From IMG/VR virus record IMGVR_UViG_3300045988_017048, positions 33,649-97,648 of that record: a stretch of 64,000 nucleotides of DNA. One strand, 5' to 3'. The DNA is from a virus. The notes under the pieces were generated by a model that had not been told where the DNA came from, searched no databases, and was given only the letters and a program-made list of their open reading frames with translations. The position numbers were made by a program, and so were the translations under genes. Numbering within the stretch: the stretch's first letter is position 1; each line of letters opens with the position of its first letter. Below, in pieces: positions 9,848 to 23,043 of this stretch.

Positions 9848-9918
9848 AGTGTATCTTAAGACTCGAACCTAACCTCTAACCCAACAGTTAGTGTGCTACC
9901 AATTACACCAAGATACAA
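9848..9918 (-). tRNA. tRNA-like gene with non-canonical anticodon loop (perfect 5-bp stem, 6-nt loop UGUUGG; GUU/Asn-like)
   Basis: Minus strand reads TTGTATC-TT-GGTG-TAATTGGTAG-CACA-CTAAC-TGTTGG-GTTAG-AGG-TTAGG-TTCGAGT-CTTAA-GATACAC. Normal acceptor, D-loop GG and T-arm, but a 6-nt (or 4 bp + 8 nt) anticodon loop and a 3-nt variable loop. Confidence 0.55.
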
Positions 9919-11486: not shown

Positions 11487-11519
11487 ACTTTTTTTTTAGT
11501 TAATACTAAGATTGTTTTG

Positions 11520-11900
11520 TGGAGCATAGGGGAGTCGAACCCCTGTCTTACCAATCTTTAATAAAAGAATTACACATGCTTACTACTTTTTAATGTGGTT
11601 AGTTACCCACTGGGCTGACTGGATTTACAGCATTTCCACCACCTTATTTTATTGTCCATAAACAAGGAAAAAGTTGAGTTACCTTCTGTGAGACCACAGC
11701 CTATTAATGCTCTTAAAGTCGGACCCTCAGCCTTAGTCTTCATTCAGGCTTTGCACCTTTCTGTTTCCAAGTAAGTGCTACTCAGCCTATTTAGGCAGCA
11801 ACTCTATAAGAAGTATTGCCAGTTATTGTTTTGATGTCTTTCCATCAGTCTTTGCATGTTCTCTTACCAAATAATTAGCAATCAAAACCAAAAATGCCCC
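11520..11900 (-). ncRNA. ssrA: tmRNA (transfer-messenger RNA)
   Basis: 5' GGGGCAU pairs with 3' AUGCUCC, including the G3:U70 wobble. T-arm AGGGG-UUCGACU-CCCCU and discriminator A. No anticodon arm; about 300 nt of internal sequence instead. Tag frame GGC AAU ACU UCU UAU AGA GUU GCU GCC UAA lies at 11820-11791 (GNTSYRVAA). Confidence 0.85.
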
Positions 11901-12118
11901 TAATAAATGGATTCATTTTCTATTGAAAGAATGTCCTAACAAAGTCAAATATTGTTTCTTCTTGAAACATCATTATTAAAGTCACTTAGCTTCCTCTTTA
12001 TATCCCCACATTGAAGCAGTTGCATTTATTAAGTGGTGATAGCTTACCTATCAGCATCACATTTTGCTTTTCTTCAGGTTCCATGCTTAGTAGAAATAGT
12101 GAGCTAAATCCACCATTG

Positions 12119-12190
12119 TATCTCCACTGAGACTCGAACTCAGATATATAGTTTAGAAGACTATTGTTCTATCCCTTGAACTATGGAGAC
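12119..12190 (-). tRNA. tRNA-Arg(TCT)
   Basis: Minus strand: acceptor GTCTCCA/TGGAGAT, AC stem ATAGT/ACTAT, loop CT-TCT-AA, T-arm CTGAG-TTCGAGT-CTCAG. Confidence 0.85.
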
Positions 12191-12308
12191 ATTATAAAAG
12201 AAGACCTATATTCACATACCAGCCTCCTGTAGCAATATTACTATTGCCTGAACTAAAAATCCTTTGCTTAAAAACAATCAAATTGCCTTATATGAGTAAA
12301 TACCTTAG

Positions 12309-12382
12309 TACTCCCTATTGGGCTTGAACCAATGACCTATGGTTTAGGAAACCATTGCTCTATCCAACTGAGCTAAGGGAGC
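12309..12382 (-). tRNA. tRNA-Arg(CCT)
   Basis: Minus strand: acceptor GCTCCCT/AGGGAGT, D-arm GCTC-AGTTGGATA-GAGC, AC stem ATGGT/ACCAT, loop TT-CCT-AA, T-arm ATTGG-TTCAAGC-CCAAT. Confidence 0.85.
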
Positions 12383-16358: not shown

Positions 16359-16434
16359 GGAGATATGATAGACTCGAACTATCATTATAACTGCAATTAT
16401 TGAGTTATGTACTAACCATTGTACTAATATCTCC
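16359..16434 (-). tRNA. tRNA-like gene with a 10-nt anticodon loop (identity undetermined)
   Basis: Minus strand reads G-GAGATAT-TA-GTAC-AATGGTTA-GTAC-A-TAACT-CAATAATTGC-AGTTA-TAAT-GATAG-TTCGAGT-CTATC-ATATCTC-C. Every arm is canonical except the anticodon loop (10 nt). The 5' G lies opposite C73, as in His tRNAs. Confidence 0.5.
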
Positions 16435-18499: not shown

Positions 18500-18531
18500 C
18501 TTGTACAATTCAAATATTTTTCTTACCTTTG
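18500..18531 (+). promoter_or_regulatory. Bacteroidota-type promoter (CTTG-N20-TACCTTTG)
   Basis: CTTG at 18500-18503 and TACCTTTG at 18524-18531. Confidence 0.6.
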
Positions 18532-18575
18532 CAGTGTGATTAAGGAAAATTGGTTTTAGGAAATTTCCACATAAG

Positions 18576-18621
18576 GAATGTTGCTTTAACCAGTTGTTTA
18601 AGGTAACATTCTTTTTTTTTT
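18576..18621 (+). terminator. hairpin plus T10 terminator/attenuator immediately upstream of the tRNA array
   Basis: Stem GAATGTTGC/GTAACATTC (9 bp including one G:U) with an 18-nt loop, then a T10 run ending 2 nt before tRNA-Gln. Confidence 0.55.
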
Positions 18622-18623
18622 AT

Positions 18624-18696
18624 TGCCTCATAGTATAGTTGGTTATTACACGGGATTTTGGCTCCTGTAACATAAGTTCGAGTCTTATTGGGGTAA
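18624..18696 (+). tRNA. tRNA-Gln(TTG)
   Basis: Acceptor TGCCTCA/TGGGGTA, AC stem CGGGA/TCCTG, loop TT-TTG-GC, T-arm ATAAG-TTCGAGT-CTTAT. Confidence 0.85.
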
Positions 18697-18713
18697 CAAT
18701 AATAAAGGTAAAT

Positions 18714-18785
18714 ACCCTCTTAGTTCAATGGATAGAATAAGAGACTTCTAATCTTTTGATATAGGTTCGATTCCTATAGGGGGTA
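18714..18785 (+). tRNA. tRNA-Arg(TCT)
   Basis: Acceptor ACCCTCT/AGGGGGT, AC stem AGAGA/TCTTT, loop CT-TCT-AA, T-arm ATAGG-TTCGATT-CCTAT. Confidence 0.85.
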
Positions 18786-18791
18786 CTAAAT

Positions 18792-18865
18792 GTTGGGTTA
18801 GACGAAGTGGTGAAGTCATCACACTTTCAATGTGAAGATTATGGGTTCGAGTCCCATACCCAATA
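18792..18865 (+). tRNA. tRNA-Glu(TTC)
   Basis: Acceptor GTTGGGT/ACCCAAT, AC stem TCACA/TGTGA, loop CT-TTC-AA, T-arm ATGGG-TTCGAGT-CCCAT. Confidence 0.85.
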
Positions 18866-18871
18866 CAATAT

Positions 18872-18943
18872 AGAGCTATCTACTAATGGACAGGTAACTG
18901 CCCTCTCAAGGCAGAAATTTGGGTTCAATTCCCAATAGCTCTA
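18872..18943 (+). tRNA. tRNA-Glu(CTC)
   Basis: Acceptor AGAGCTA/TAGCTCT, AC stem CTGCC/GGCAG, loop CT-CTC-AA, T-arm TTGGG-TTCAATT-CCCAA. Confidence 0.85.
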
Positions 18944-18949
18944 CAATTT

Positions 18950-19022
18950 AGGGTGTGTAGCATAGTGGTTAATGTGCCTGACTGTCAATTAGGAGATTGG
19001 AGTTCAATTCTCCCACATCCTG
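18950..19022 (+). tRNA. tRNA-Asp(GTC)
   Basis: Acceptor AGGGTGT/ACATCCT, AC stem CCTGA/TTAGG, loop CT-GTC-AA, T-loop TTCAATT. Confidence 0.8.
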
Positions 19023-19048
19023 CTAATCCACCTTTAATCTACTGAAGT

Positions 19049-19072
19049 CCTATCCTACAGAGGTAGGATAGG
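19049..19072. repeat. perfect 10-bp hairpin between tRNA-Asp and tRNA-Ser
   Basis: CCTATCCTAC-AGAG-GTAGGATAGG. Shares the 10-mer CCTATCCTAC with 16951-16960. Confidence 0.8.
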
Positions 19073-19077
19073 CAAAT

Positions 19078-19162
19078 GGAGAGGTAACTCAGTGGGACTG
19101 GGACTTGTCTTGAAAACAATGGGAGCAGTAAAATGCTTGGGGGTCAGGACCTCACCTCTCCG
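19078..19162 (+). tRNA. tRNA-Ser(TGA)
   Basis: Class II: acceptor GGAGAGG/CCTCTCC, loop CT-TGA-AA, variable arm GAGCA-GTAAAA-TGCTT. The T-loop is atypical (GTCAGGA). Confidence 0.75.
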
Positions 19163-19201
19163 CAATAATGGTGTTCTTTGACATGTTGGTGAGGAAAGTA
19201 T

Positions 19202-19287
19202 GGAGAGTAAACTATCAAGGTGATAGTCCTATCTGCTAAATAGTGAGTACCCTAATAAGGTATTTGTTTCGAGTACAATGCTCTCCG
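19202..19287 (+). tRNA. tRNA-Ser(GCT)
   Basis: Class II: acceptor GGAGAGT/GCTCTCC, loop CT-GCT-AA, variable arm GTACC-CTAATAA-GGTAT, T-loop TTCGAGT. Confidence 0.8.
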
Positions 19288-19293
19288 CAATAT

Positions 19294-19366
19294 ATGGGTG
19301 TAATTCAGTAGGTAGAATGCTGGCTTTGGGAGCCAGTTGTCCTTGGTTCGAGTCCAAGTACCCATA
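19294..19366 (+). tRNA. tRNA-Pro(TGG)
   Basis: Acceptor ATGGGTG/TACCCAT, AC stem CTGGC/GCCAG, loop TT-TGG-GA, T-arm CTTGG-TTCGAGT-CCAAG. Confidence 0.85.
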
Positions 19367-19371
19367 CTAAT

Positions 19372-19445
19372 GGGCTTTGTAGTGTAATCAGGTTAGCACA
19401 AGACATTTGCAATGTTTTAGAGGAGTTCAAATCTCACAAGGTCCA
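19372..19445 (+). tRNA. tRNA-Ala(TGC)
   Basis: Acceptor GGGCTTT/AAGGTCC with G3:U70, AC stem AGACA/TGTTT, loop TT-TGC-AA, T-loop TTCAAAT (weak T stem). Confidence 0.75.
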
Positions 19446-19529
19446 CTATGCTTTCATGTTTTCATAATGTTGAGCTTTTGCTTGAACCCTCTTTTGGGTA
19501 GTTAGAGGTTAAAGAAATTACCCTATCAA

Positions 19530-19603
19530 TGCTCTTTAGTTCAGTGGTTTAGAATAGTTCCCTTACAAGGAAAAGGTCATTAGTTCGATTCTAATAGGAG
19601 CAA
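19530..19603 (+). tRNA. tRNA-Val(TAC)
   Basis: Acceptor TGCTCTT/AGGAGCA, loop CT-TAC-AA, T-arm ATTAG-TTCGATT-CTAAT. Confidence 0.85.
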
Positions 19604-19610
19604 CATAAAT

Positions 19611-19682
19611 GGGTCTTTAGTTCAAAGGTCAGAACAAGGGGCTGTTAACCCTTAGATGTAAGTTCGAGTCTTACAGGTCCCG
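19611..19682 (+). tRNA. tRNA-Asn(GTT)
   Basis: Acceptor GGGTCTT/AGGTCCC (one mismatch), AC stem AGGGG/CCCTT, loop CT-GTT-AA, T-arm GTAAG-TTCGAGT-CTTAC. Confidence 0.8.
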
Positions 19683-19791
19683 CAAAAACTTTTGCAAGAA
19701 GTTTAGTCAAGTAGCTTGCAATACTTGATGCCATCATTTCTGAAAAGTCTCTGAGTGCAATAAGGAGGAGTAATCAATGATTTGATGCTTT

Positions 19792-19864
19792 AGCAGGTTA
19801 GAGAAGTAGTAATCTTGCCCCACCCATAATGGGGAGACCAGTGGTGCAAATCCACTACCTGCAA
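19792..19864 (+). tRNA. tRNA(CAT), Met or Ile-lysidine type, with unusual C33 and A1xA72
   Basis: Acceptor AGCAGGT/ACCTGCA (terminal A x A), D-arm GAGA-AGTAGTAA-TCTT with no GG in the loop, AC stem CCCCA/TGGGG, loop CC-CAT-AA, T-arm AGTGG-TGCAAAT-CCACT. Confidence 0.65.
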
Positions 19865-19872
19865 CTATAAAT

Positions 19873-19944
19873 TGGTACTTAGTTTAATGGTAAAACCTCA
19901 GACTCCAAATCTGAAAGATGAGTGTTCGAGTCATTCAGTACCTG
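19873..19944 (+). tRNA. tRNA-Trp(CCA)
   Basis: Acceptor (T)GGTACT/AGTACC(T), AC stem TCAGA/TCTGA, loop CT-CCA-AA, T-arm GAGTG-TTCGAGT-CATTC. Confidence 0.8.
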
Positions 19945-19950
19945 CTATAT

Positions 19951-20022
19951 TGGCATATCTTCTAATGGTCAGGAAGCTACTCTGATAAGGTAGTAATCAA
20001 GGTTCAATTCCTTGTATGCCAA
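19951..20022 (+). tRNA. tRNA-Ile(GAT)
   Basis: Acceptor TGGCATA/TATGCCA, AC stem CTACT/GGTAG, loop CT-GAT-AA, T-arm CAAGG-TTCAATT-CCTTG. Confidence 0.85.
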
Positions 20023-20024
20023 CT

Positions 20025-20444
20025 ATGATTAGAAAATATTTAAGTAGTAGAGGCAAGAGAATAGTTCTTATCTGTAAACATTGTGGCAAGGAATTTGAAA
20101 CCTTGCAACTAAAGGCTAATGCAGGTAGAGAAAAGTTCTGTAGTAGGGAATGTTATAACCAATACAGGAAGGAATGCTGTACCAGCATAAAAGAAAGGAA
20201 CATTTTATATCAGAAAAAGTCTAAATATGGTTTGACAGAAGAGGAATATAAGGGTCTATTTGATGCACAAGGTAATAGATGTTCTATATGTGGGACTTCT
20301 TTTGAAGTTACTAAAGCTTTTGTAGACCATGACCATAAAACAGGAAGGGTAAGAGGATTGCTATGTTCTCAATGCAATACATTACTTGGGATGGCTAAGG
20401 ATAATACTGAGGTATTAGAAGCTGCTATTCAATACCAGAAATAG
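20025..20444 (+). CDS. endonuclease VII-family (T4 gp49-like) nuclease embedded in the tRNA array
   Basis: CSICGTSFEVTKAFVDHDHKTGRVRGLLCSQCNTLLG matches the Endonuclease_7 signature (C.iC...vDHdH.tG.vRGlLC..CN..lG). An N-terminal CxxC...C..C zinc module is also present. The track start (20016) lies inside tRNA-Ile, so the start was moved to the ATG at 20025. Confidence 0.8.
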   Translation: MIRKYLSSRGKRIVLICKHCGKEFETLQLKANAGREKFCSRECYNQYRKECCTSIKERNILYQKKSKYGLTEEEYKGLFDAQGNRCSICGTSFEVTKAFVDHDHKTGRVRGLLCSQCNTLLGMAKDNTEVLEAAIQYQK

Positions 20445-20515
20445 CTGATGTACTTCAATGGTAGAAGACTGCTCTCATAAGGCAGTAGTTGAAAGTTCGA
20501 GTCTTTCTATCAGCA
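20444..20515 (+). tRNA. tRNA-Met(CAT), elongator-like
   Basis: Acceptor GCTGATG/TATCAGC, AC stem CTGCT/GGCAG, loop CT-CAT-AA, T-arm GAAAG-TTCGAGT-CTTTC. Begins on the last base of the upstream stop codon. Confidence 0.8.
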
Positions 20516-20517
20516 CT

Positions 20518-20591
20518 GTGTTAGTAGCTCAGTCAGGTAGAGCAAAGGATTGTGGCTCCTTATGGCATGGGTTCAAATCCCATCTAACACC
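20518..20591 (+). tRNA. tRNA-His(GTG)
   Basis: Acceptor GTGTTAG/CTAACAC (the 5' G can be read as G-1 opposite C73), AC stem AAGGA/TCCTT, loop TT-GTG-GC, T-arm ATGGG-TTCAAAT-CCCAT. Confidence 0.85.
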
Positions 20592-20598
20592 CCAATAT

Positions 20599-20675
20599 AC
20601 TAGCATATCCCCTCTGTCTTATACACAGTAGAAAGGGTAATAGGTCACATGTGGGTTCAATCCCCTCTGCTAGTA
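20599..20675 (+). tRNA. tRNA-like element with a perfect acceptor stem and T-arm but a non-cloverleaf core
   Basis: Acceptor ACTAGCA/TGCTAGT (7/7) and T-arm GTGGG-TTCAATC-CCCTC. The interior holds the hairpin CTCTGT-CTTATAC-ACAG(T)AG (loop reads U-UAU-A) flanked by CCC...GGG. No normal D-arm could be folded. Confidence 0.4.
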
Positions 20676-20679
20676 CTAT

Positions 20680-20753
20680 CTTGGAGTACCAGAGTGGCTA
20701 ATGGCACAGACTGCAAATCTGATGATTCGTGGGTTCAAATCCCACCTCCAAGT
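20680..20753 (+). tRNA. tRNA-Cys(GCA)
   Basis: Acceptor CTTGGAG/CTCCAAG, loop CT-GCA-AA, T-arm GTGGG-TTCAAAT-CCCAC. Confidence 0.85.
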
Positions 20754-20755
20754 CT

Positions 20756-21007
20756 ATGTGTTATATAGATAAACTTATAAAGAACAATACAGGAGTTTCT
20801 TCAAAGAACTTCTTCTTAGTGGCAGTTACCTTAATAGGTTTAATCCTACTATTAGTTCCTGCTGTACTTCTTATAATAGAAGTATATTATAATCATACTA
20901 TACAGACAGACCTTAATGGTCTTGCTGCTTATATAGGTGCTGTTGCTGGAGTATTTGCATCAGCAGGTATTACTAAAGCATGGTCTGAAAAGTATGAAAA
21001 GAAATAA
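20756..21007 (+). CDS. small two-helix membrane protein (holin-like topology)
   Basis: Start trimmed to the ATG at 20756 because the track start lies inside tRNA-Cys. 83 aa with two hydrophobic helices (FFLVAVTLIGLILLLVPAVLLII and LAAYIGAVAGVFASAGI). Confidence 0.55.
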   Translation: MCYIDKLIKNNTGVSSKNFFLVAVTLIGLILLLVPAVLLIIEVYYNHTIQTDLNGLAAYIGAVAGVFASAGITKAWSEKYEKK

Positions 21008-21008
21008 T

Positions 21009-21082
21009 GCTCCTATAGCTGAATTGGTTAAAGCAACAGTCTCTTAAACTGTGGATTCAAGGTTCAAGTCCTTGTGGGGGCA
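21009..21082 (+). tRNA. tRNA-Lys(CTT)
   Basis: Acceptor GCTCCTA/TGGGGGC (G:U-rich), AC stem ACAGT/ACTGT, loop CT-CTT-AA, T-arm CAAGG-TTCAAGT-CCTTG. Confidence 0.8.
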
Positions 21083-21103
21083 CAACCCAACCTTGGCAAA
21101 TAT

Positions 21104-21176
21104 TCCCCCAAAGCATTGATGGTGGATGCTCTGGACTTTTAATCCTGAAAGTAAGGTTCGATTCCTTATGGGGGAA
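21104..21176 (+). tRNA. tRNA-Lys(TTT)
   Basis: Acceptor TCCCCCA/TGGGGGA, D-arm GCAT-TGATGGTGG-ATGC, loop CT-TTT-AA, T-arm TAAGG-TTCGATT-CCTTA. Confidence 0.85.
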
Positions 21177-21210
21177 CATAACATATTATTAACTCCAAAT
21201 TTTTATTGTT

Positions 21211-21318
21211 ATGAAGAAAGTTATTTCATTAATTAAGAGAGGTGCTAAGGCATACTTTAGACAATCTGCTAAGACTTATGCTTGGGCACCTACAGGAACT
21301 ATTCCAGTTGGAATATAG
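21211..21318 (+). CDS. possible 35-aa basic peptide
   Basis: Read by hand: MKKVISLIKRGAKAYFRQSAKTYAWAPTGTIPVGI. It is the only open frame in the 178-nt gap between tRNA-Lys and tRNA-Tyr. Confidence 0.25.
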   Translation: MKKVISLIKRGAKAYFRQSAKTYAWAPTGTIPVGI

Positions 21319-21354
21319 TTCCTTTGATGCTGGAGTGAGTAATAAATATTATAT

Positions 21355-21437
21355 GGGGTAGCTTTAATGTGGTGAATTAGTGTGGACTGTAAATCCACTG
21401 CCTCAGGCTATTTAAGGTTCGATTCCTTTCTGCCCCA
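21355..21437 (+). tRNA. tRNA-Tyr(GTA)
   Basis: Class II: acceptor GGGGTAG/CTGCCCC, AC stem GTGGA/TCCAC, loop CT-GTA-AA, variable arm, T-loop TTCGATT. Confidence 0.85.
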
Positions 21438-21505
21438 CTTCAATAGAAATCTTTGTCCTTGACTTATGGAAAGTGATGTGGGTAGAGACACAAATAAGTC
21501 ATTAT

Positions 21506-21580
21506 GGGTGTTGGGCAGGTATGGTTACATTGCGTAGGTCTGAAAAACCTAAGAATAAAGTTCGATTCTTTGAACACCCA
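21506..21580 (+). tRNA. tRNA-Phe(GAA)
   Basis: Acceptor GGGTGTT/AACACCC, AC stem TAGGT/ACCTA, loop CT-GAA-AA, T-loop TTCGATT. Confidence 0.85.
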
Positions 21581-21586
21581 CTATAT

Positions 21587-21671
21587 ACTCCTGTGGTGGA
21601 ACTGGTAGACACACTTGCCTCAAAAGCAAGAGCTTGAAAAAAGAGTAAGAGTTCAAGTCTCTTCAGGAGTA
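21587..21671 (+). tRNA. tRNA-Leu(CAA)
   Basis: Class II: acceptor ACTCCTG/CAGGAGT, AC stem CTTGC/GCAAG, loop CT-CAA-AA, T-arm AAGAG-TTCAAGT-CTCTT. Confidence 0.85.
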
Positions 21672-21679
21672 CTTATAAT

Positions 21680-21768
21680 GCCCTCTTGGTGGAATTTGGT
21701 AGACACATCTGCCTTAGAAGCAGACATGAAGTAATAGTAGTGTAAGAGTTCAAGTCTCTTAGAGGGTA
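21680..21768 (+). tRNA. tRNA-Leu(TAG)
   Basis: Class II: acceptor GCCCTCT/AGAGGGT, AC stem TCTGC/GCAGA, loop CT-TAG-AA, T-arm AAGAG-TTCAAGT-CTCTT. Confidence 0.85.
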
Positions 21769-21770
21769 CT

Positions 21771-22091
21771 ATGAAAGAGATTAATATTAAATATAGTGAG
21801 TACATTATTAATGTGCTTTTAAGTACCAATAATACTTCTATAACAGACTCTTATAGGATAAGGAGAGTAAAAGACATGGTTAATGTCTTAAAGAAGATAA
21901 GAAACACATGTGATAATTCTTATGCTATACACAAGAGAAGTATATTTGGTATGGTTAATGAATGGAGAGTACATAATCTATTATACTTTTTACATATAAA
22001 AAGGAGAAGGACAGGTACAGTAGATTTAAATATAAATCAGAGTATATGGGCAAAAATAGCTTATACATTGCTCTCTGTATTTTATTTTTAA
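21771..22091 (+). CDS. hypothetical protein
   Basis: 106-aa ORF starting 3 nt after tRNA-Leu. Confidence 0.55.
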   Translation: MKEINIKYSEYIINVLLSTNNTSITDSYRIRRVKDMVNVLKKIRNTCDNSYAIHKRSIFGMVNEWRVHNLLYFLHIKRRRTGTVDLNINQSIWAKIAYTLLSVFYF

Positions 22092-22118
22092 AGAATAAAA
22101 AAAATAAATAGTATTTTA

Positions 22119-22150
22119 CTTGCATATTTCAATTAAAATACTTATCTTTG
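22119..22150 (+). promoter_or_regulatory. Bacteroidota-type promoter (CTTG-N20-TATCTTTG)
   Basis: CTTG at 22119-22122 and TATCTTTG at 22143-22150, 20 nt upstream of the 22171 ATG. Confidence 0.6.
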
Positions 22151-22170
22151 CACCATCAAAATAAGAGAAT

Positions 22171-22617
22171 ATGTTTGAAGAAGATAACCTATTTACTCCA
22201 ATGGAATCAAGTAGAAGTACTGAAGTATCTGGCTCTCAGTTCTTTATTAACTTCTTAAACCAGCTTGAAGGTTGGAAGACCAAGTGTAAGAACTTGCATT
22301 GGGCAGCACCTAAGAAGAATATCCATGTATATCTTGATGAATTTCTTGATATATTGTCAGACTATCAAGATGGTCTTGCAGAAGGATATATGGGAATACT
22401 TGGTAAGATGCAACCTAATGTAATCAAAGGAACTCCAAGTGATGCACTGAATGCTTTTGACTTTATAAGTGAAGTTAAGTCTGCTACTACTGCATTTTAT
22501 GATAAGATTCCTCAAGAGACTATTTATAAAGGTATAGCATCTGAATGTGAGACCTTTATTCAGAATATCAATAAGTATGACTTCTTATTCCACTTATGTG
22601 ATATAAGACCTTATTGA
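22171..22617 (+). CDS. Dps/ferritin-like four-helix-bundle protein (tentative)
   Basis: CKNLHWAAPKKNIHVYLDEFLDILSDYQDGLAEGYMGILG parallels the Dps signature (HW.v.G..F..lHe.fde.y......D..AER...lG). Confidence 0.4.
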   Translation: MFEEDNLFTPMESSRSTEVSGSQFFINFLNQLEGWKTKCKNLHWAAPKKNIHVYLDEFLDILSDYQDGLAEGYMGILGKMQPNVIKGTPSDALNAFDFISEVKSATTAFYDKIPQETIYKGIASECETFIQNINKYDFLFHLCDIRPY

Positions 22618-22625
22618 CAAGAGAT

Positions 22626-22711
22626 GCTCTCATGGTGGAATTGGTAGACACGAGGGACTTAAAATCCCTTGGCCAGAAATGGTTGTCTGGGTTCAACTCC
22701 CAGTGGGAGTA
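22626..22711 (+). tRNA. tRNA-Leu(TAA)
   Basis: Class II: acceptor GCTCTCA/TGGGAGT, AC stem AGGGA/TCCCT, loop CT-TAA-AA, T-arm CTGGG-TTCAACT-CCCAG. Followed by an encoded CCA. Confidence 0.85.
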
Positions 22712-22717
22712 CCATTT

Positions 22718-22791
22718 GCCTCCTTAGTGTTAATGGTTTAGCAAGCCTGTCTTGTAAACAGGAAGAGAGGGTTCAAATCCTTCAGGAGGCT
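22718..22791 (+). tRNA. tRNA-Thr(TGT)
   Basis: Acceptor GCCTCCT/AGGAGGC, AC stem CCTGT/ACAGG, loop CT-TGT-AA, T-arm GAGGG-TTCAAAT-CCTTC. Confidence 0.85.
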
Positions 22792-22797
22792 CAAAGT

Positions 22798-22870
22798 GTA
22801 GGTATGGTGTTAGTGGTTAGCATATGACATTGCCAATGTCAAGGGGTCAGTTCAAATCTGATTATCTACT
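22798..22870 (+). tRNA. tRNA-Gly(GCC)
   Basis: Acceptor GTAGGTA/TATCTAC, AC stem TGACA/TGTCA, loop TT-GCC-AA, T-loop TTCAAAT. Confidence 0.85.
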
Positions 22871-22875
22871 CAAAT

Positions 22876-22947
22876 GCAGGTATAGTATAAAGGTTAGTAT
22901 GTAACACTTCCAATGTTAATGTGTGGGTTCGATTCCCACTATCTGCT
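22876..22947 (+). tRNA. tRNA-Gly(TCC)
   Basis: Acceptor GCAGGTA/TATCTGC, AC stem TAACA/TGTTA, loop CT-TCC-AA, T-arm GTGGG-TTCGATT-CCCAC. Confidence 0.85.
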
Positions 22948-22956
22948 CAGATATAT

Positions 22957-23029
22957 CATGGGGTGATAGCAATGGTAGCTAGCAAGGCTCATAACCTTGA
23001 GGTTGGAGGTTCGAGTCCTCCCCCCGTAA
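22957..23029 (+). tRNA. initiator-like tRNA-fMet(CAT)
   Basis: CATGGGG-TGA-TAGC-AATGGTA-GCTA-G-CAAGG-CTCATAA-CCTTG-AGGTT-GGAGG-TTCGAGT-CCTCC-CCCCGTA-A. Carries the C1xA72 mismatch and a GGGG/CCCC acceptor like bacterial initiators, but only two G:C pairs at the base of the anticodon stem. Confidence 0.7.
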
Positions 23030-23043
23030 CTAAATTACTTTAT

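What the first reader, a model, noticed from the sequence alone, without database searches (positions are those of the whole stretch)
18624..23029. Decoding kit covering all 20 amino acids: about 28 plus-strand tRNAs, 2 minus-strand tRNA-Arg and a tmRNA
Hand folding gives these plus-strand tRNAs: Gln, Arg, Glu x2, Asp, Ser x2, Pro, Ala, Val, Asn, CAT x3, Trp, Ile, His, Cys, Lys x2, Tyr, Phe, Leu x3, Thr and Gly x2. Arg(TCT) and Arg(CCT) lie on the minus strand. Every amino acid is represented, including an initiator-like tRNA. Most anticodons read A/U-ending codons, and AGA alone has two dedicated tRNAs. AGA is visibly the dominant Arg codon in the phage ORFs. This fits compensation for a host tRNA pool that does not match the phage's AT-rich codon usage, or resistance to host tRNA-targeting defences. 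The array is dense, with many spacers of 2-10 nt, yet it is interrupted by protein genes and longer spacers.
Basis: seen in the sequence. Interest (0 to 1): 0.65.

Follow-up and report, generated by a model that had tools for sequence, protein, structure and literature searches.

The report
Near-complete tRNA set of crAss-like phage
A gut crAss-like phage carries 29 tRNA genes in one cluster, plus two tRNA-Arg genes and a tmRNA nearby, which is a known trait of this phage family; one of them, a tRNA-Ile, has a rearranged core that tRNA finders miss and that proves to be widespread in phages.

Summary
ARAGORN finds 25 at default settings, Rfam adds Thr, and the two Ser genes are supported by relaxed ARAGORN plus strong covariation. 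Arg(TCT), Arg(CCT) and a full-length tmRNA lie on the minus strand at 11.5-12.4 kb, outside the stated coordinates. All 20 amino acids are covered.

The window is a Steigviridae crAss-like phage. Its array is syntenic with crAss001 (25 tRNAs) and cr85_1, and the tmRNA is already annotated in relative cr106_1. The array itself is therefore a known kind.

New points:
- AGA dominance reflects a 20-fold CpG depletion (observed/expected 0.05), not AT-richness alone. CGN makes up 9 of 591 Arg codons.
- If U34 reads whole codon boxes, the phage tRNAs could read 99.9% of its codons.
- Both Ser tRNAs are non-canonical, with long D stems; Ser(GCT) is 8/4-like.
- The "spacer" at 20599-20675 is a 29th gene, a tRNA-Ile(UAU) whose D-stem 5' strand and D loop sit after the anticodon arm.
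- This form has at least 93 distinct relatives in viral contigs, all with Ile anticodons and full covariation. It is mutually exclusive with canonical tRNA-Ile at the same array slots. I found no description of it.

The parts
18624..18697 (+). tRNA-Gln(TTG), first gene of the array
   Evidence: ARAGORN; Rfam 57.0 bits
18714..18786 (+). tRNA-Arg(TCT)
   Evidence: ARAGORN; Rfam 66.5 bits
18792..18866 (+). tRNA-Glu(TTC)
   Evidence: ARAGORN; Rfam 65.3 bits
18872..18944 (+). tRNA-Glu(CTC)
   Evidence: ARAGORN; Rfam 58.5 bits
18950..19023 (+). tRNA-Asp(GTC)
   Evidence: ARAGORN; Rfam 61.4 bits
19049..19072 (+). Conserved 10-bp hairpin in the Asp-Ser spacer; role unknown, possibly a processing signal
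   Evidence: MFE fold z = -3.7; compensatory changes against cr85_1; conserved in 33 loci
19078..19163 (+). tRNA-Ser(TGA), non-canonical: 5-bp D stem with 5-nt loop, T loop GUCAGGA, long variable arm, G73
   Evidence: ARAGORN only at -ps90; alignment A3, 100% paired with 10 compensatory pairs
19202..19288 (+). tRNA-Ser(GCT), non-canonical: 8/4-type acceptor/T branch, 5-6 bp D stem, long variable arm, G73
   Evidence: ARAGORN only at -ps90; alignment A2, 98.9% paired with 13 compensatory pairs
19294..19367 (+). tRNA-Pro(TGG)
   Evidence: ARAGORN; Rfam 64.6 bits
19372..19446 (+). tRNA-Ala(TGC)
   Evidence: ARAGORN; Rfam 40.4 bits
19530..19604 (+). tRNA-Val(TAC)
   Evidence: ARAGORN; Rfam 62.3 bits
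19611..19683 (+). tRNA-Asn(GTT)
   Evidence: ARAGORN; Rfam 64.8 bits
19792..19865 (+). CAT tRNA no. 1: atypical (A1.A72 mismatch, A11:U24, C33, T loop UGCAAAU, D loop without GG); identity unresolved
   Evidence: ARAGORN; Rfam 47.1 bits; relatives carry other anticodon loops on the same scaffold
19873..19945 (+). tRNA-Trp(CCA)
   Evidence: ARAGORN; Rfam 61.0 bits
19951..20023 (+). tRNA-Ile(GAT), canonical
   Evidence: ARAGORN; Rfam 61.5 bits
20016..20444 (+). Endonuclease VII / HNH-type (homing-endonuclease-like) gene inside the array
   Evidence: Pfam PF02945 E = 3.4e-25; PHROG endonuclease VII E = 3e-32
20444..20516 (+). CAT tRNA no. 2: elongator-type (Met, or Ile2 if lysidinylated)
   Evidence: ARAGORN; Rfam 66.8 bits; regular 1:72 pair and Y11:R24 read from the sequence
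20518..20594 (+). tRNA-His(GTG)
   Evidence: ARAGORN; Rfam 68.6 bits
20599..20675 (+). Rewired ("X-form") tRNA-Ile(UAU). It has a 7-bp acceptor stem with A73, a normal T arm and an anticodon hairpin with loop CUUAUAC. The D-stem 5' strand and D-loop-like segment lie 3' of the anticodon arm.
   Evidence: Rfam tRNA 26.7 bits, below threshold; ARAGORN finds nothing; RNAalifold; model R1 101 bits; 93 distinct relatives; covariation; mutually exclusive with canonical Ile
20680..20754 (+). tRNA-Cys(GCA)
   Evidence: ARAGORN; Rfam 55.0 bits
20729..21007 (+). ORF of unknown function inside the array (up to 92 aa; hydrophobic)
   Evidence: the ORF listing; no Pfam or PHROG hit
21009..21083 (+). tRNA-Lys(CTT)
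   Evidence: ARAGORN; Rfam 67.7 bits
21104..21177 (+). tRNA-Lys(TTT)
   Evidence: ARAGORN; Rfam 50.0 bits
21355..21438 (+). tRNA-Tyr(GTA), long variable arm
   Evidence: ARAGORN; Rfam 32.5 bits
21506..21581 (+). tRNA-Phe(GAA)
   Evidence: ARAGORN; Rfam 46.6 bits
21587..21672 (+). tRNA-Leu(CAA)
   Evidence: ARAGORN; Rfam 58.2 bits
21680..21769 (+). tRNA-Leu(TAG)
   Evidence: ARAGORN; Rfam 53.3 bits
21771..22091 (+). ORF of unknown function (106 aa) inside the array
   Evidence: the ORF listing; no family hit
22171..22617 (+). Dps-like protein gene, a conserved landmark inside the array
   Evidence: Annotated "putative DpsA" in cr85_1 and crAss001; 146 relatives in IMG/VR
22626..22714 (+). tRNA-Leu(TAA)
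   Evidence: ARAGORN; Rfam 54.5 bits
22718..22791 (+). tRNA-Thr(TGT)
   Evidence: Rfam 51.9 bits; ARAGORN only at relaxed threshold
22798..22871 (+). tRNA-Gly(GCC)
   Evidence: ARAGORN; Rfam 50.1 bits
22876..22948 (+). tRNA-Gly(TCC)
   Evidence: ARAGORN; Rfam 66.8 bits
22957..23030 (+). CAT tRNA no. 3: initiator-like (C1.A72, A11:U24, G30-C40, G31-C39, loop CUCAUAA)
   Evidence: ARAGORN; Rfam 44.8 bits; features read from the sequence
12308..12382 (-). tRNA-Arg(CCT)
   Evidence: ARAGORN; Rfam 67.2 bits
12118..12190 (-). tRNA-Arg(TCT), second AGA reader
   Evidence: ARAGORN; Rfam 65.6 bits
11517..11900 (-). tmRNA (SsrA), tag GNTSYRVAA
   Evidence: Rfam RF00023 76.1 bits, model positions 1-374 of 374; ARAGORN; homologue annotated as SsrA in cr106_1
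16359..16433 (-). tRNA-like gene with a regular body and a 10-nt anticodon loop (CAAUAAUUGC); probably not a decoder
   Evidence: Rfam 50.6 bits; in relatives the loop is CAATTGC, CATTGC or TTATTGC while the acceptor stem covaries
9849..9917 (-). Doubtful tRNA-like sequence with a 6-nt anticodon loop
   Evidence: ARAGORN only; no Rfam match at E <= 1; fold z = -1.4

Best explanation
This is the tRNA operon of a Steigviridae (crAss001-like) phage. It sits at the head of the plus-strand gene block, next to the strand-switch region. Twenty-nine tRNA genes are packed head to tail, mostly 1-8 nt apart. They are interrupted by an endonuclease VII/HNH gene, a Dps-like gene and small ORFs.

Inferred steps, none shown here:
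- The genes are transcribed as long precursors.
- Host RNase P and 3' nucleases cut the precursors.
- The host CCA enzyme finishes the 3' ends, since only one gene encodes CCA.
- Host synthetases charge the tRNAs.

Together with two minus-strand tRNA-Arg genes, the set has one U34 tRNA for each four-codon box, plus G34 or C34 partners elsewhere. If U34 reads whole boxes, the phage can read every codon it uses except CGN. The phage has almost none of those, because its genome is nearly free of CpG.

The most likely role is to supply decoding capacity for a codon usage that a Bacteroides-type tRNA pool serves poorly. That usage is AGA/AGG only for Arg, with UUA, AUA and A/U-ending codons favoured. 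The tmRNA adds ribosome rescue.

Within the set, AUA is read by a structurally rewired tRNA-Ile(UAU). It replaces the canonical tRNA-Ile(UAU) that relatives carry at the same slot.
For: Gene calls.

Lineage and synteny with cr85_1 and crAss001.

Codon usage: AGA 417, AGG 165, CGN 9. 83% of 13,976 codons are readable by Watson-Crick plus simple wobble; all but 9 are readable if U34 reads four-codon boxes.

CpG observed/expected is 0.053 in the window and about 0.10 in relatives.

Bacteroides plasmid proxy: CGN is 65% and AGA 8% of Arg codons, and CpG observed/expected is 1.19.

Anticodons of nearly all array tRNAs are invariant across relatives.

X-form tRNA-Ile:
- 93 distinct members, all with UAU or GAU loops although the search pattern left the loop free.
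- The 17 top mutual-information pairs are exactly the 17 variable pairs of the model.
- It sits 4-14 nt from same-strand tRNAs. In many marine contigs it forms the trio Leu(UAA)-Arg(UCU)-X, the decoders for the AT-rich rare codons.
- It never co-occurs with the canonical tRNA-Ile of the same anticodon (both 0, X only 25, canonical only 28, neither 9, for UAU) and occupies the same slots.

Literature: Steigviridae and Zeta crAss-like phages encode 1-34 tRNAs (PMC10136315). Codon-compensation and host-degradation models are summarised in PMC11025619.
Against: - There are no expression, processing or charging data.
- The real host is unknown, and the host proxy is a plasmid, not a chromosome.
- Array content is very variable among close relatives (9-29 tRNAs, 6-20 amino acids), so many members are dispensable in some settings.
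- The Watson-Crick match to phage tRNAs is the same for minus-strand and plus-strand genes. This gives no support to a late-gene-specific role.
- Reading of all four codons of a box by U34 is assumed, not shown.
- A set that also covers codons any host reads well (Trp, Met, GAA, AAA) is more than compensation alone requires.
Confidence: 0.62

Rival explanations
1. Independence from, or insensitivity to, host tRNA loss. The near-complete set keeps phage translation running when host tRNAs are cleaved by anticodon nucleases (PrrC, VapC, colicin-type, PARIS or retron effectors) or degraded during infection. Unusual tRNA bodies (rewired Ile, long-D-stem Ser, CAT1 with C33) would be variants that host tRNases do not recognise.
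For: - The set covers all 20 amino acids and about 99.9% of the codons used, more than compensation needs.
- Several members have non-canonical bodies that are conserved by covariation.
- The CAT1 scaffold carries many different anticodon loops among close relatives while its stem stays paired.
- Array content turns over fast, as expected in an arms race.
- The hypothesis is in the literature (van den Berg 2023, PMC10264068; PMC11025619).
Against: - No tRNA-targeting defence was examined in any host.
- The anticodon loops of the X-form are the standard Ile loops, not mutated ones.
- Most array tRNAs are ordinary cloverleaves with high Rfam scores.
- The strong codon-usage and CpG signal already gives a sufficient reason for the AGR, AUA and UUA decoders.
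Confidence: 0.25
2. Largely neutral accretion. The array is a recombination-prone landing pad where tRNA cassettes and homing endonucleases come and go. Completeness in this genome is a chance extreme with little selective meaning.
For: - Relatives have 9-29 tRNAs, and only 11 of 58 arrays cover 20 amino acids.
- An endonuclease VII/HNH gene lies inside the array, and crAss001 has one at another position.
- L005 carries a chimeric Ser gene formed by recombination between the two Ser genes.
- Degenerate tRNA-like copies exist on the minus strand.
Against: - Anticodons and stems are under clear purifying selection across relatives.
- Gene order is conserved from crAss001 to this phage.
- The tRNA set mirrors the phage's peculiar codon usage.
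Confidence: 0.1
3. The X-form element is not a decoding tRNA. It would be a tRNA-Ile mimic, for example a decoy for an Ile-specific tRNase or modification enzyme, or a processing signal.
For: - It lacks a D arm at the normal place, scores below the Rfam tRNA threshold and is invisible to ARAGORN.
- No charging data exist.
Against: - It keeps every feature a decoder needs: a 7-bp acceptor stem, A73, U33, A37, TTC and GG motifs, and an R15:Y48-like covarying pair.
- It replaces canonical tRNA-Ile at the same slot and never coexists with it.
- In small arrays it accompanies Leu(UAA) and Arg(UCU).
Confidence: 0.12

Closest known systems
tRNA arrays of Steigviridae crAss-like phages (crAss001, MH675552; cr85_1, MT774390)
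   Same: - Same genomic position, strand and gene order (Gln-Arg-Glu-Asp-Ser-Pro-Ala-Val-Asn-Trp-Ile-Met-...-Gly-Gly-Met).
- A Dps-like gene sits inside the array and an HNH-type endonuclease is inserted in it.
- crAss001 was reported with 25 tRNAs for 17 amino acids (PMC6235969).
- Steigviridae and Zeta phages are reported with 1-34 tRNAs (PMC10136315).
   Different: - This array is at the top of the range: 29 plus-strand genes covering 20 amino acids.
- It adds Cys, Tyr, a second Glu, a third Leu and an extra CAT tRNA.
- Its Ser tRNAs and its Ile(UAU) are non-canonical forms. crAss001 has canonical Ser(GCT) and Ile(UAU).
(8/4) tRNA-Ser / allo-tRNA class (Mukai et al. 2017, PMC5389517)
   Same: Long variable arm, G73, and a long D stem with a 4-5 nt loop. 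For Ser(GCT), a 4-bp T stem with an eighth acceptor pair. (8/4) tRNA-Ser was already reported in bacteriophages.
   Different: - These are found in Bacteroidota-infecting crAss-like phages rather than alpha-proteobacterial phages.
- The eighth acceptor pair is invariant, so covariation cannot prove it.
- For Ser(TGA), 7/5 and 8/4 cannot be told apart, and its T loop (GUCRGGA) is unusual.
D-arm-lacking mitochondrial tRNAs (e.g. mt-tRNA-Ser(AGY); nematode tRNAs), reviewed in PMC7609411
   Same: No D hairpin between the acceptor and anticodon stems. Standard tRNA finders miss them.
   Different: - The X-form keeps a D-stem-like helix (CYC:GRG) that encloses the anticodon hairpin.
- It keeps a conserved D-loop-like segment (UARUWGGU) with GG, placed after the anticodon arm.
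- It keeps a covarying R15:Y48-like pair and a fully canonical T arm.
- It is encoded by phages of bacteria, not by organelles. The review does not mention phage or viral tRNAs.
Phage-encoded tmRNA (annotated SsrA in crAss-like phage cr106_1, MT774378)
   Same: The matched stretches (about 28% of the 901-nt query) are 91% identical, and the feature under the match is annotated as transfer-messenger RNA. The window copy is a full-length match to Rfam RF00023.
   Different: None of note. The tag peptide GNTSYRVAA contains an AGA codon and ends in AA, like bacterial tags.
Large tRNA sets of other lytic phages, and the general hypotheses for them
   Same: Dense arrays, bias towards codons the phage uses, and homing endonucleases between genes. 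The hypotheses are codon compensation, host tRNA degradation and nuclease evasion (PMC11025619; PMC10264068).
   Different: Here the codon bias is tied to near-absence of CpG, so CGN decoders are not needed at all.

Membership tests
crAss001-type (Steigviridae) tRNA array | Nucleotide similarity to Steigviridae genomes across the array | tested here: met
   megablast hits 80-95% identical to cr85_1, crAss001, PhiCrAssBcn phages and Kehishuvirus
crAss001-type (Steigviridae) tRNA array | Conserved order of tRNA genes with the Dps-like gene inside, followed by the Zn-finger / VpsT-like / HU / GroES-like genes and terminase | tested here: met
   Annotated regions of cr85_1 and crAss001 show the same order. 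The window ORFs downstream were not individually compared.
Canonical bacterial tRNA (Rfam RF00005) | Score at or above the gathering threshold (29 bits) | tested here: met
   26 of 29 plus-strand genes and both minus-strand Arg genes score 32.5-68.6 bits. The exceptions are the two Ser genes (no hit) and the X-form Ile (26.7 bits).
tmRNA (Rfam RF00023) | Full-length match above threshold, with a tag reading frame ending in a stop codon | tested here: met
   76.1 bits against 47, model positions 1-374 of 374; tag GNTSYRVAA*; reading frame visible in the sequence
(8/4) tRNA-Ser / allo-tRNA | 12-bp acceptor branch split 8/4: a 4-bp T stem and an eighth acceptor pair | tested here: inconclusive
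   Ser(GCT): the T stem has only 4 pairs, the outermost covarying GC/UA/AU. A fifth pair would be U.U in all 27 sequences. A8-U is present in all but never varies. Ser(TGA): U8-A and U62-A78 are both possible and invariant.
(8/4) tRNA-Ser / allo-tRNA | Long D stem with a small loop, long variable arm, G73 or U73 | tested here: met
   5-6 bp D stems with 4-5 nt loops, all five pairs covarying in Ser(GCT); 5-bp variable-arm stems; G73 in most sequences
Bacterial initiator tRNA-fMet (for CAT tRNA no. 3, 22957-23030) | C1.A72 mismatch and A11:U24 | tested here: met
   Read from the sequence: CATGGGG...CCCCGTA-A gives C1.A72; D stem TAGC/GCTA gives A11:U24
Bacterial initiator tRNA-fMet (for CAT tRNA no. 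3) | Three consecutive G-C pairs, 29-31 with 39-41 | tested here: not met
   Only G30-C40 and G31-C39 are present; 29:41 is A-U. There is also an extra nucleotide between the acceptor and D stems. I therefore call it "initiator-like".
tRNA, as a decoding adaptor (for the X-form, 20599-20675) | 7-bp acceptor stem with discriminator, T arm with TTC loop, 7-nt anticodon loop with U33 and a purine at 37 | tested here: met
   All are present and conserved or covarying in 70 aligned members; A73, U33 and A37 are invariant
tRNA, as a decoding adaptor (for the X-form) | D arm between position 9 and the anticodon arm (cloverleaf order) | tested here: not met
   Only UCYCC lies there. CYC pairs with GRG located after the anticodon hairpin (12:38 is C-G in 52 and U-A in 41, with no mismatch). 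The D-loop-like segment follows.
tRNA, as a decoding adaptor (for the X-form) | Aminoacylation and use on the ribosome | not testable with these tools
   Indirect support only: mutual exclusivity with canonical tRNA-Ile at the same slots and position within tRNA clusters
Stop-codon-recoding crAss-like phages (suppressor tRNA) | A suppressor tRNA and in-frame TAG or TGA in late genes | tested here: not met
   No suppressor among the calls. Long uninterrupted ORFs under code 11, up to 1588 aa.

The most novel reading that the evidence does not exclude
The element at 20599-20675 represents an undescribed, virus-associated class of functional tRNA-Ile. In it the D-stem 5' strand and the D loop have moved to the 3' side of the anticodon arm. 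The order is acceptor 5' strand, U8-A9, D 3' strand, position 26, anticodon arm, NGAAA linker, D 5' strand, D loop, positions 46-48, T arm.

The molecule could still form the usual L-shape with rewired strand connectivity, keeping U8:A14-like, R15:Y48-like and GG:TΨC-like contacts. Standard tRNA finders miss it, so AUA (and AUY) decoders would be under-annotated in many gut, marine and freshwater phages.
Probability: 0.5. Interest if true: 0.8.

Novelty: new variant of a known kind. Interest (0 to 1): 0.55.

Why it matters
The array as such adds little. Large tRNA sets and a tmRNA are already recorded for this phage family. Three things go further.

1. Codon usage and CpG. The near-complete set goes together with an almost CpG-free genome. 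This explains why all arginine decoding rests on AGR tRNAs, and it gives a concrete, testable link between dinucleotide avoidance and tRNA carriage.

2. Annotation gaps. Default tRNA finders miss 3 to 4 of the 29 genes, so published counts such as "25 tRNAs for 17 amino acids" are likely underestimates for this family.

3. The rewired tRNA-Ile.
- If it is a working adaptor, it would show that the tRNA core tolerates a change of strand order.
- It is common in phages of many habitats and occurs in a cultured phage (Kehishuvirus 'tikkala'), so charging, processing and structure can be tested directly.

Tried and rejected
- Sigma-70 promoter and terminator scan of 17.5-23.6 kb: fewer promoter-like sites than in shuffles (13 against 20.5). 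The scan does not suit Bacteroidota promoters.
- Bacteroidota-type promoter pattern TTTG-N17-23-TANNTTTG: 3 matches against 2.8 expected, so uninformative. TAnnTTTG motifs seen by eye at 18524 and 22139 are only a lead.
- Early-versus-late test: the Watson-Crick match to phage tRNAs is 54.2% for minus-strand genes and 54.1% for plus-strand genes, so no difference.
- Recoding by the Sec/allo-like Ser tRNAs: rejected, because their anticodons (UGA, GCU) are serine anticodons and are invariant.
- Stop-codon reassignment: rejected. There is no suppressor tRNA, and ORFs are long under code 11.
- A diversity-generating retroelement as the cause of CAT1 anticodon-loop variation: rejected, because the changes are not confined to adenines.
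- Other hidden tRNAs in the longer spacers (19447-19529, 19684-19791, 21178-21354, 21439-21505): the spacers are conserved and hold small hairpins or a 35-aa ORF, but nothing tRNA-like. Model R1 finds only one X-form in the window.
- BLAST of a marine X-form against GenBank phages gave only two hits, both unannotated. Too insensitive to judge distribution.
- The apparent ORF-free stretch at 56.9-64 kb is explained by a plus-strand ORF that runs off the window end, which the ORF tool does not list.
- Host comparison: no Bacteroides chromosome could be fetched, so I used plasmid p5482 as a weak proxy.
- Seven literature searches and targeted reading found no description of the X-form. The single search on CpG depletion in crAss-like phages returned only unrelated papers, so that question is open rather than answered. 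Absence from this library is not proof of novelty.

Full report
**1. What is there**

ARAGORN at default settings finds 25 plus-strand tRNA genes between 18624 and 23030. On the minus strand it finds Arg(TCT) at 12118-12190, Arg(CCT) at 12308-12382, and a tmRNA at 11519-11900 with tag GNTSYRVAA. Rfam agrees. The tmRNA is a full-length match (76.1 bits against a threshold of 47). The tRNA model scores 32.5-68.6 bits for 26 plus-strand genes and both minus-strand Arg genes, and it adds Thr(TGT) at 22718-22791 with 51.9 bits.

ARAGORN at 90% of its threshold calls Ser(TGA) at 19078-19163 and Ser(GCT) at 19202-19288. The minus-strand Arg genes and the tmRNA are real but lie 6-7 kb outside the coordinates given. 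Sixteen of the 28 spacers are 8 nt or shorter.

**2. Where it comes from**

The region matches crAss-like phages of the family Steigviridae: cr85_1 (Kahnovirus), crAss001 and other Kehishuvirus, and the PhiCrAssBcn isolates of Bacteroides intestinalis. The annotated arrays of cr85_1 and crAss001 have the same gene order, the same Dps-like gene inside the array, and an HNH-type endonuclease inserted among the tRNAs.

crAss001 was published with 25 tRNAs for 17 amino acids (PMC6235969). Reviews state that Steigviridae and Zeta crAss-like phages encode 1-34 tRNAs (PMC10136315; PMC7886860). The matched stretches of the tmRNA region (28% of the query) are 91% identical to cr106_1, where the feature under the match is annotated as SsrA. 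As a kind of thing, the array with its tmRNA is already known.

The GC-skew sign change at about 17-18 kb places the array at the head of the plus-strand gene block.

**3. The two serine tRNAs are real but non-canonical**

I fetched 80 related loci from IMG/VR, anchored on the Dps-like gene, and collected the homologues.

- Ser(GCT): 27 distinct sequences, 98.9% of cells paired, 13 pairs with changes on both sides, 0 of 500 shuffles as good.
- Ser(TGA): 16 distinct sequences, 100% paired, 10 compensatory pairs.

Both have a 5-6 bp D stem with a 4-5 nt loop, a long variable arm, and usually G73. In Ser(GCT) the T stem has only four pairs, and a fifth would be U.U in every sequence. A8 can pair with the next base, giving the 8/4 arrangement of Mukai et al., who already reported (8/4) tRNA-Ser in bacteriophages (PMC5389517). 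The eighth pair never varies, so covariation cannot prove it. For Ser(TGA), 7/5 and 8/4 cannot be distinguished, and its T loop (GUCRGGA) is unusual.

crAss001 and some relatives carry canonical 7/5 versions instead. The anticodons are serine anticodons and do not vary, so nothing suggests recoding.

**4. A 29th gene: a rewired tRNA-Ile**

*What the tools see in the window.* The 85-nt "spacer" between His and Cys contains a 77-nt element at 20599-20675. Rfam scores it at 26.7 bits, just under threshold. ARAGORN does not see it even at 70% threshold.

*Structure.* It has a 7-bp acceptor stem with A73, a normal T arm (loop UUCAAUC), and a 4-bp hairpin whose loop CUUAUAC is the standard loop of tRNA-Ile(UAU). 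It has no D arm at the usual place. Instead CCC at positions 11-13 pairs with GGG at positions 37-39, so this helix encloses the anticodon hairpin. After it comes UAAUAGGUCACAU, which looks like a D loop (A14, R15, G18, G19) running straight into the T stem. RNAalifold on 17 relatives predicts this fold independently.

*Distribution in viral contigs.* I scanned IMG/VR with the pattern TATCYCC-N18-GAAAGRGTARTWGGT, which leaves the anticodon hairpin and the Y/R pairing free. These gave 93 distinct members plus one chance match.

- All 93 have Ile anticodon loops: UAU in 79 and GAU in 14.
- Position 12 against position 38 is C-G in 52 and U-A in 41, with no mismatch.

*Covariation.* On 70 aligned members, 96.9% of cells pair. 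Every acceptor, anticodon-stem and T-stem pair that varies covaries. Position 42 covaries with position 52 (A-U 46, G-C 18, other 6), as the R15:Y48 Levitt pair does in ordinary tRNAs. In an unbiased mutual-information ranking, the top 17 column pairs are exactly the 17 variable pairs of this model.

*Inferred architecture.* I infer that the D-stem 5' strand and the D loop have been moved to the 3' side of the anticodon arm. The order would be: acceptor 5' strand, U8-A9, D 3' strand, position 26, anticodon arm, NGAAA linker, D 5' strand, D loop, positions 46-48, T arm. The known tertiary partners are all still present. That this folds into an L-shape is inference; no tool here models RNA in three dimensions.

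**5. Is the rewired form a working tRNA-Ile?**

Three observations from comparative genomics favour this.

- It lies on the same strand, 4-14 nt from neighbouring tRNAs. In many marine contigs the whole cluster is Leu(UAA)-Arg(UCU)-X, the decoders of the three classic AT-rich rare codons UUA, AGA and AUA.
- In 62 complete arrays of this phage lineage, the canonical and rewired forms never co-occur:

| Anticodon | Canonical only | Rewired only | Both | Neither |
|---|---|---|---|---|
| UAU | 28 | 25 | 0 | 9 |
| GAU | 39 | 13 | 0 | 10 |

- The two forms occupy the same slots: His_Cys for UAU and Trp_Met for GAU.

The family is essentially virus-associated. The same pattern found only 21 places in 596 Gb of species-representative genomes. 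All are in metagenome-assembled bins of scattered taxa. Twenty are true members, and one of these has a CAU loop.

In GenBank phages a BLAST search found it, unannotated, in the cultured Kehishuvirus 'tikkala' and in cr130_1. Rfam 15 has no family for it. Seven literature searches and a review of non-canonical tRNAs gave no description.

**6. Other odd members**

*CAT tRNA no. 3 (22957-23030)* is initiator-like. It has C1.A72, A11:U24, G30-C40 and G31-C39, but only two of the three G-C pairs and an extra base before the D stem.

*CAT tRNA no. 2 (20444-20516)* is an ordinary elongator type.

*CAT tRNA no. 1 (19792-19865)* is atypical, with A1.A72, C33, T loop UGCAAAU and no GG in the D loop. 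Among relatives the same scaffold carries these anticodon loops, while the stem stays paired:

| Loop | Number of loci |
|---|---|
| CTCATAA | 16 |
| CCCATAA | 2 |
| CTGCTAA | 2 |
| CTCATAG | 1 |
| CCCTTAA | 1 |
| TTGAGAT | 1 |
| CGCATGA | 1 |
| CGTATGA | 1 |

Its identity is unresolved.

*The minus-strand element at 16359-16433* scores 50.6 bits as a tRNA but has a 10-nt anticodon loop. Relatives have CAATTGC, CATTGC or TTATTGC there, without U33, while the acceptor stem covaries. It is probably not a decoder.

*The call at 9849-9917* is doubtful.

**7.

In 45 long ORFs (13,976 codons), Arg is AGA 417, AGG 165 and all CGN together 9. GCG, CCG, TCG and ACG occur 3, 3, 7 and 5 times. This is not simply AT-richness. 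CpG observed/expected is 0.053 over the whole window (107 CpG in 64 kb), while GpC is 1.00. The depletion is shared by relatives (median 0.10; crAss001 fragment 0.11) but not by other phages that carry the rewired tRNA-Ile (median 0.67).

The phage tRNAs read 83% of codons by Watson-Crick and simple wobble. If the single U34 tRNA of each four-codon box reads the whole box, they read everything except the 9 CGN codons.

A Bacteroides proxy, plasmid p5482 of B. thetaiotaomicron, has CpG observed/expected 1.19, CGN at 65% and AGA at 8% of Arg codons, and frequent NCG codons. A large mismatch with a Bacteroides-type pool is therefore plausible. However, the proxy is weak and the real host is unknown.

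Minus-strand and plus-strand genes match the phage tRNAs equally well. Completeness is not conserved: 58 complete arrays of relatives hold 9-29 tRNAs for 6-20 amino acids, and 11 of them cover all 20. This window ties for the largest.

The supply (compensation) reading is therefore the best supported. The defence-evasion reading is open and untested. Part of the content may be neutral turnover driven by recombination and the endonuclease VII/HNH gene at 20016-20444.

**8. Verdict**

The array and tmRNA are a known feature of this phage family.

Beyond that, three things are, to my knowledge, new: the link to CpG avoidance, the non-canonical Ser tRNAs, and above all the rewired tRNA-Ile family. 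The secondary structure of that family is shown by covariation. Its function as an adaptor and its three-dimensional fold are inferred.

Noticed in passing
window 1-64000: Extreme CpG depletion: 107 CpG in 64 kb, observed/expected 0.053, while GpC is 1.00. Relatives share it (median 0.10), but a Bacteroides plasmid does not (1.19). Many of the remaining CpGs sit in tRNA T loops (TTCGA). Cause unknown; restriction avoidance or another CpG-directed pressure are possibilities.
   Followed up: partly
L005:5188-5274 (IMG/VR 3300045988_010435): A chimeric Ser gene: the 5' half of Ser(TGA) fused to the 3' half of Ser(GCT). This deletes the DNA between the two genes, a footprint of recombination between paralogous tRNAs in the array.
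   Followed up: no
window 19792-19865 and homologues in L020, L027, L029, L034, L010: One tRNA scaffold (CAT tRNA no. 1) carries different anticodon loops in close relatives (CAT, CTT, GCT, GAG, TAT; position 33 is U, C or G), while the anticodon stem stays paired through compensatory changes.
   Followed up: partly
window 16359-16433 (-): tRNA-like gene closest to a tRNA-Arg(UCU) of crAss001. Its anticodon loop has lost U33 and varies in length (6, 7 or 10 nt) among relatives, while the body is conserved.
   Followed up: partly
window 19049-19072, 19500-19525, 19684-19791: The longer spacers inside the array are conserved across dozens of relatives and contain hairpins with compensatory changes (e.g. 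GGGTAG/CTACCC against GGGCAG/CTGCCC). None is tRNA-like. They could be processing signals or small RNAs.
   Followed up: partly
window 21213-21320 (+): A conserved 35-codon ORF (MKKVISLIKRGAKAYFRQSAKTYAWAPTGTIPVGI) between Lys(TTT) and Tyr. It is kept in 37 related loci with mostly conservative changes.
   Followed up: no
window 18573-18614 (+): A 17-pair hairpin followed by a run of T lies directly upstream of the first tRNA, and a TAccTTTG motif at 18524-18531 precedes it. It is terminator-like or attenuator-like, at the entry to the array.
   Followed up: no
L081, L140 (related arrays): ARAGORN calls a TTA (ochre) suppressor in L081 and a CTA (amber) tRNA in L140, within otherwise similar arrays. 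In several relatives the Val(TAC) slot is called Cys(ACA) or has a shortened loop. These look like anticodon changes in progress.
   Followed up: no
L100:about 7760 (IMG/VR 3300031994_002623): An unrelated phage contig carries a rewired tRNA-Ile(GAU) next to a tmRNA (tag GEIDFSPAYEYAVAA) and 12 tRNAs. The tmRNA-plus-array combination therefore recurs outside crAss-like phages.
   Followed up: no
L210, L204, L223, L215 (genome contigs): A few rewired tRNA-Ile copies lie on large contigs of Prevotellaceae and Erysipelotrichaceae MAGs with normal CpG and higher GC. One has a CAU loop. They could be prophages, mis-binned phage contigs or genuine cellular copies.
   Followed up: no
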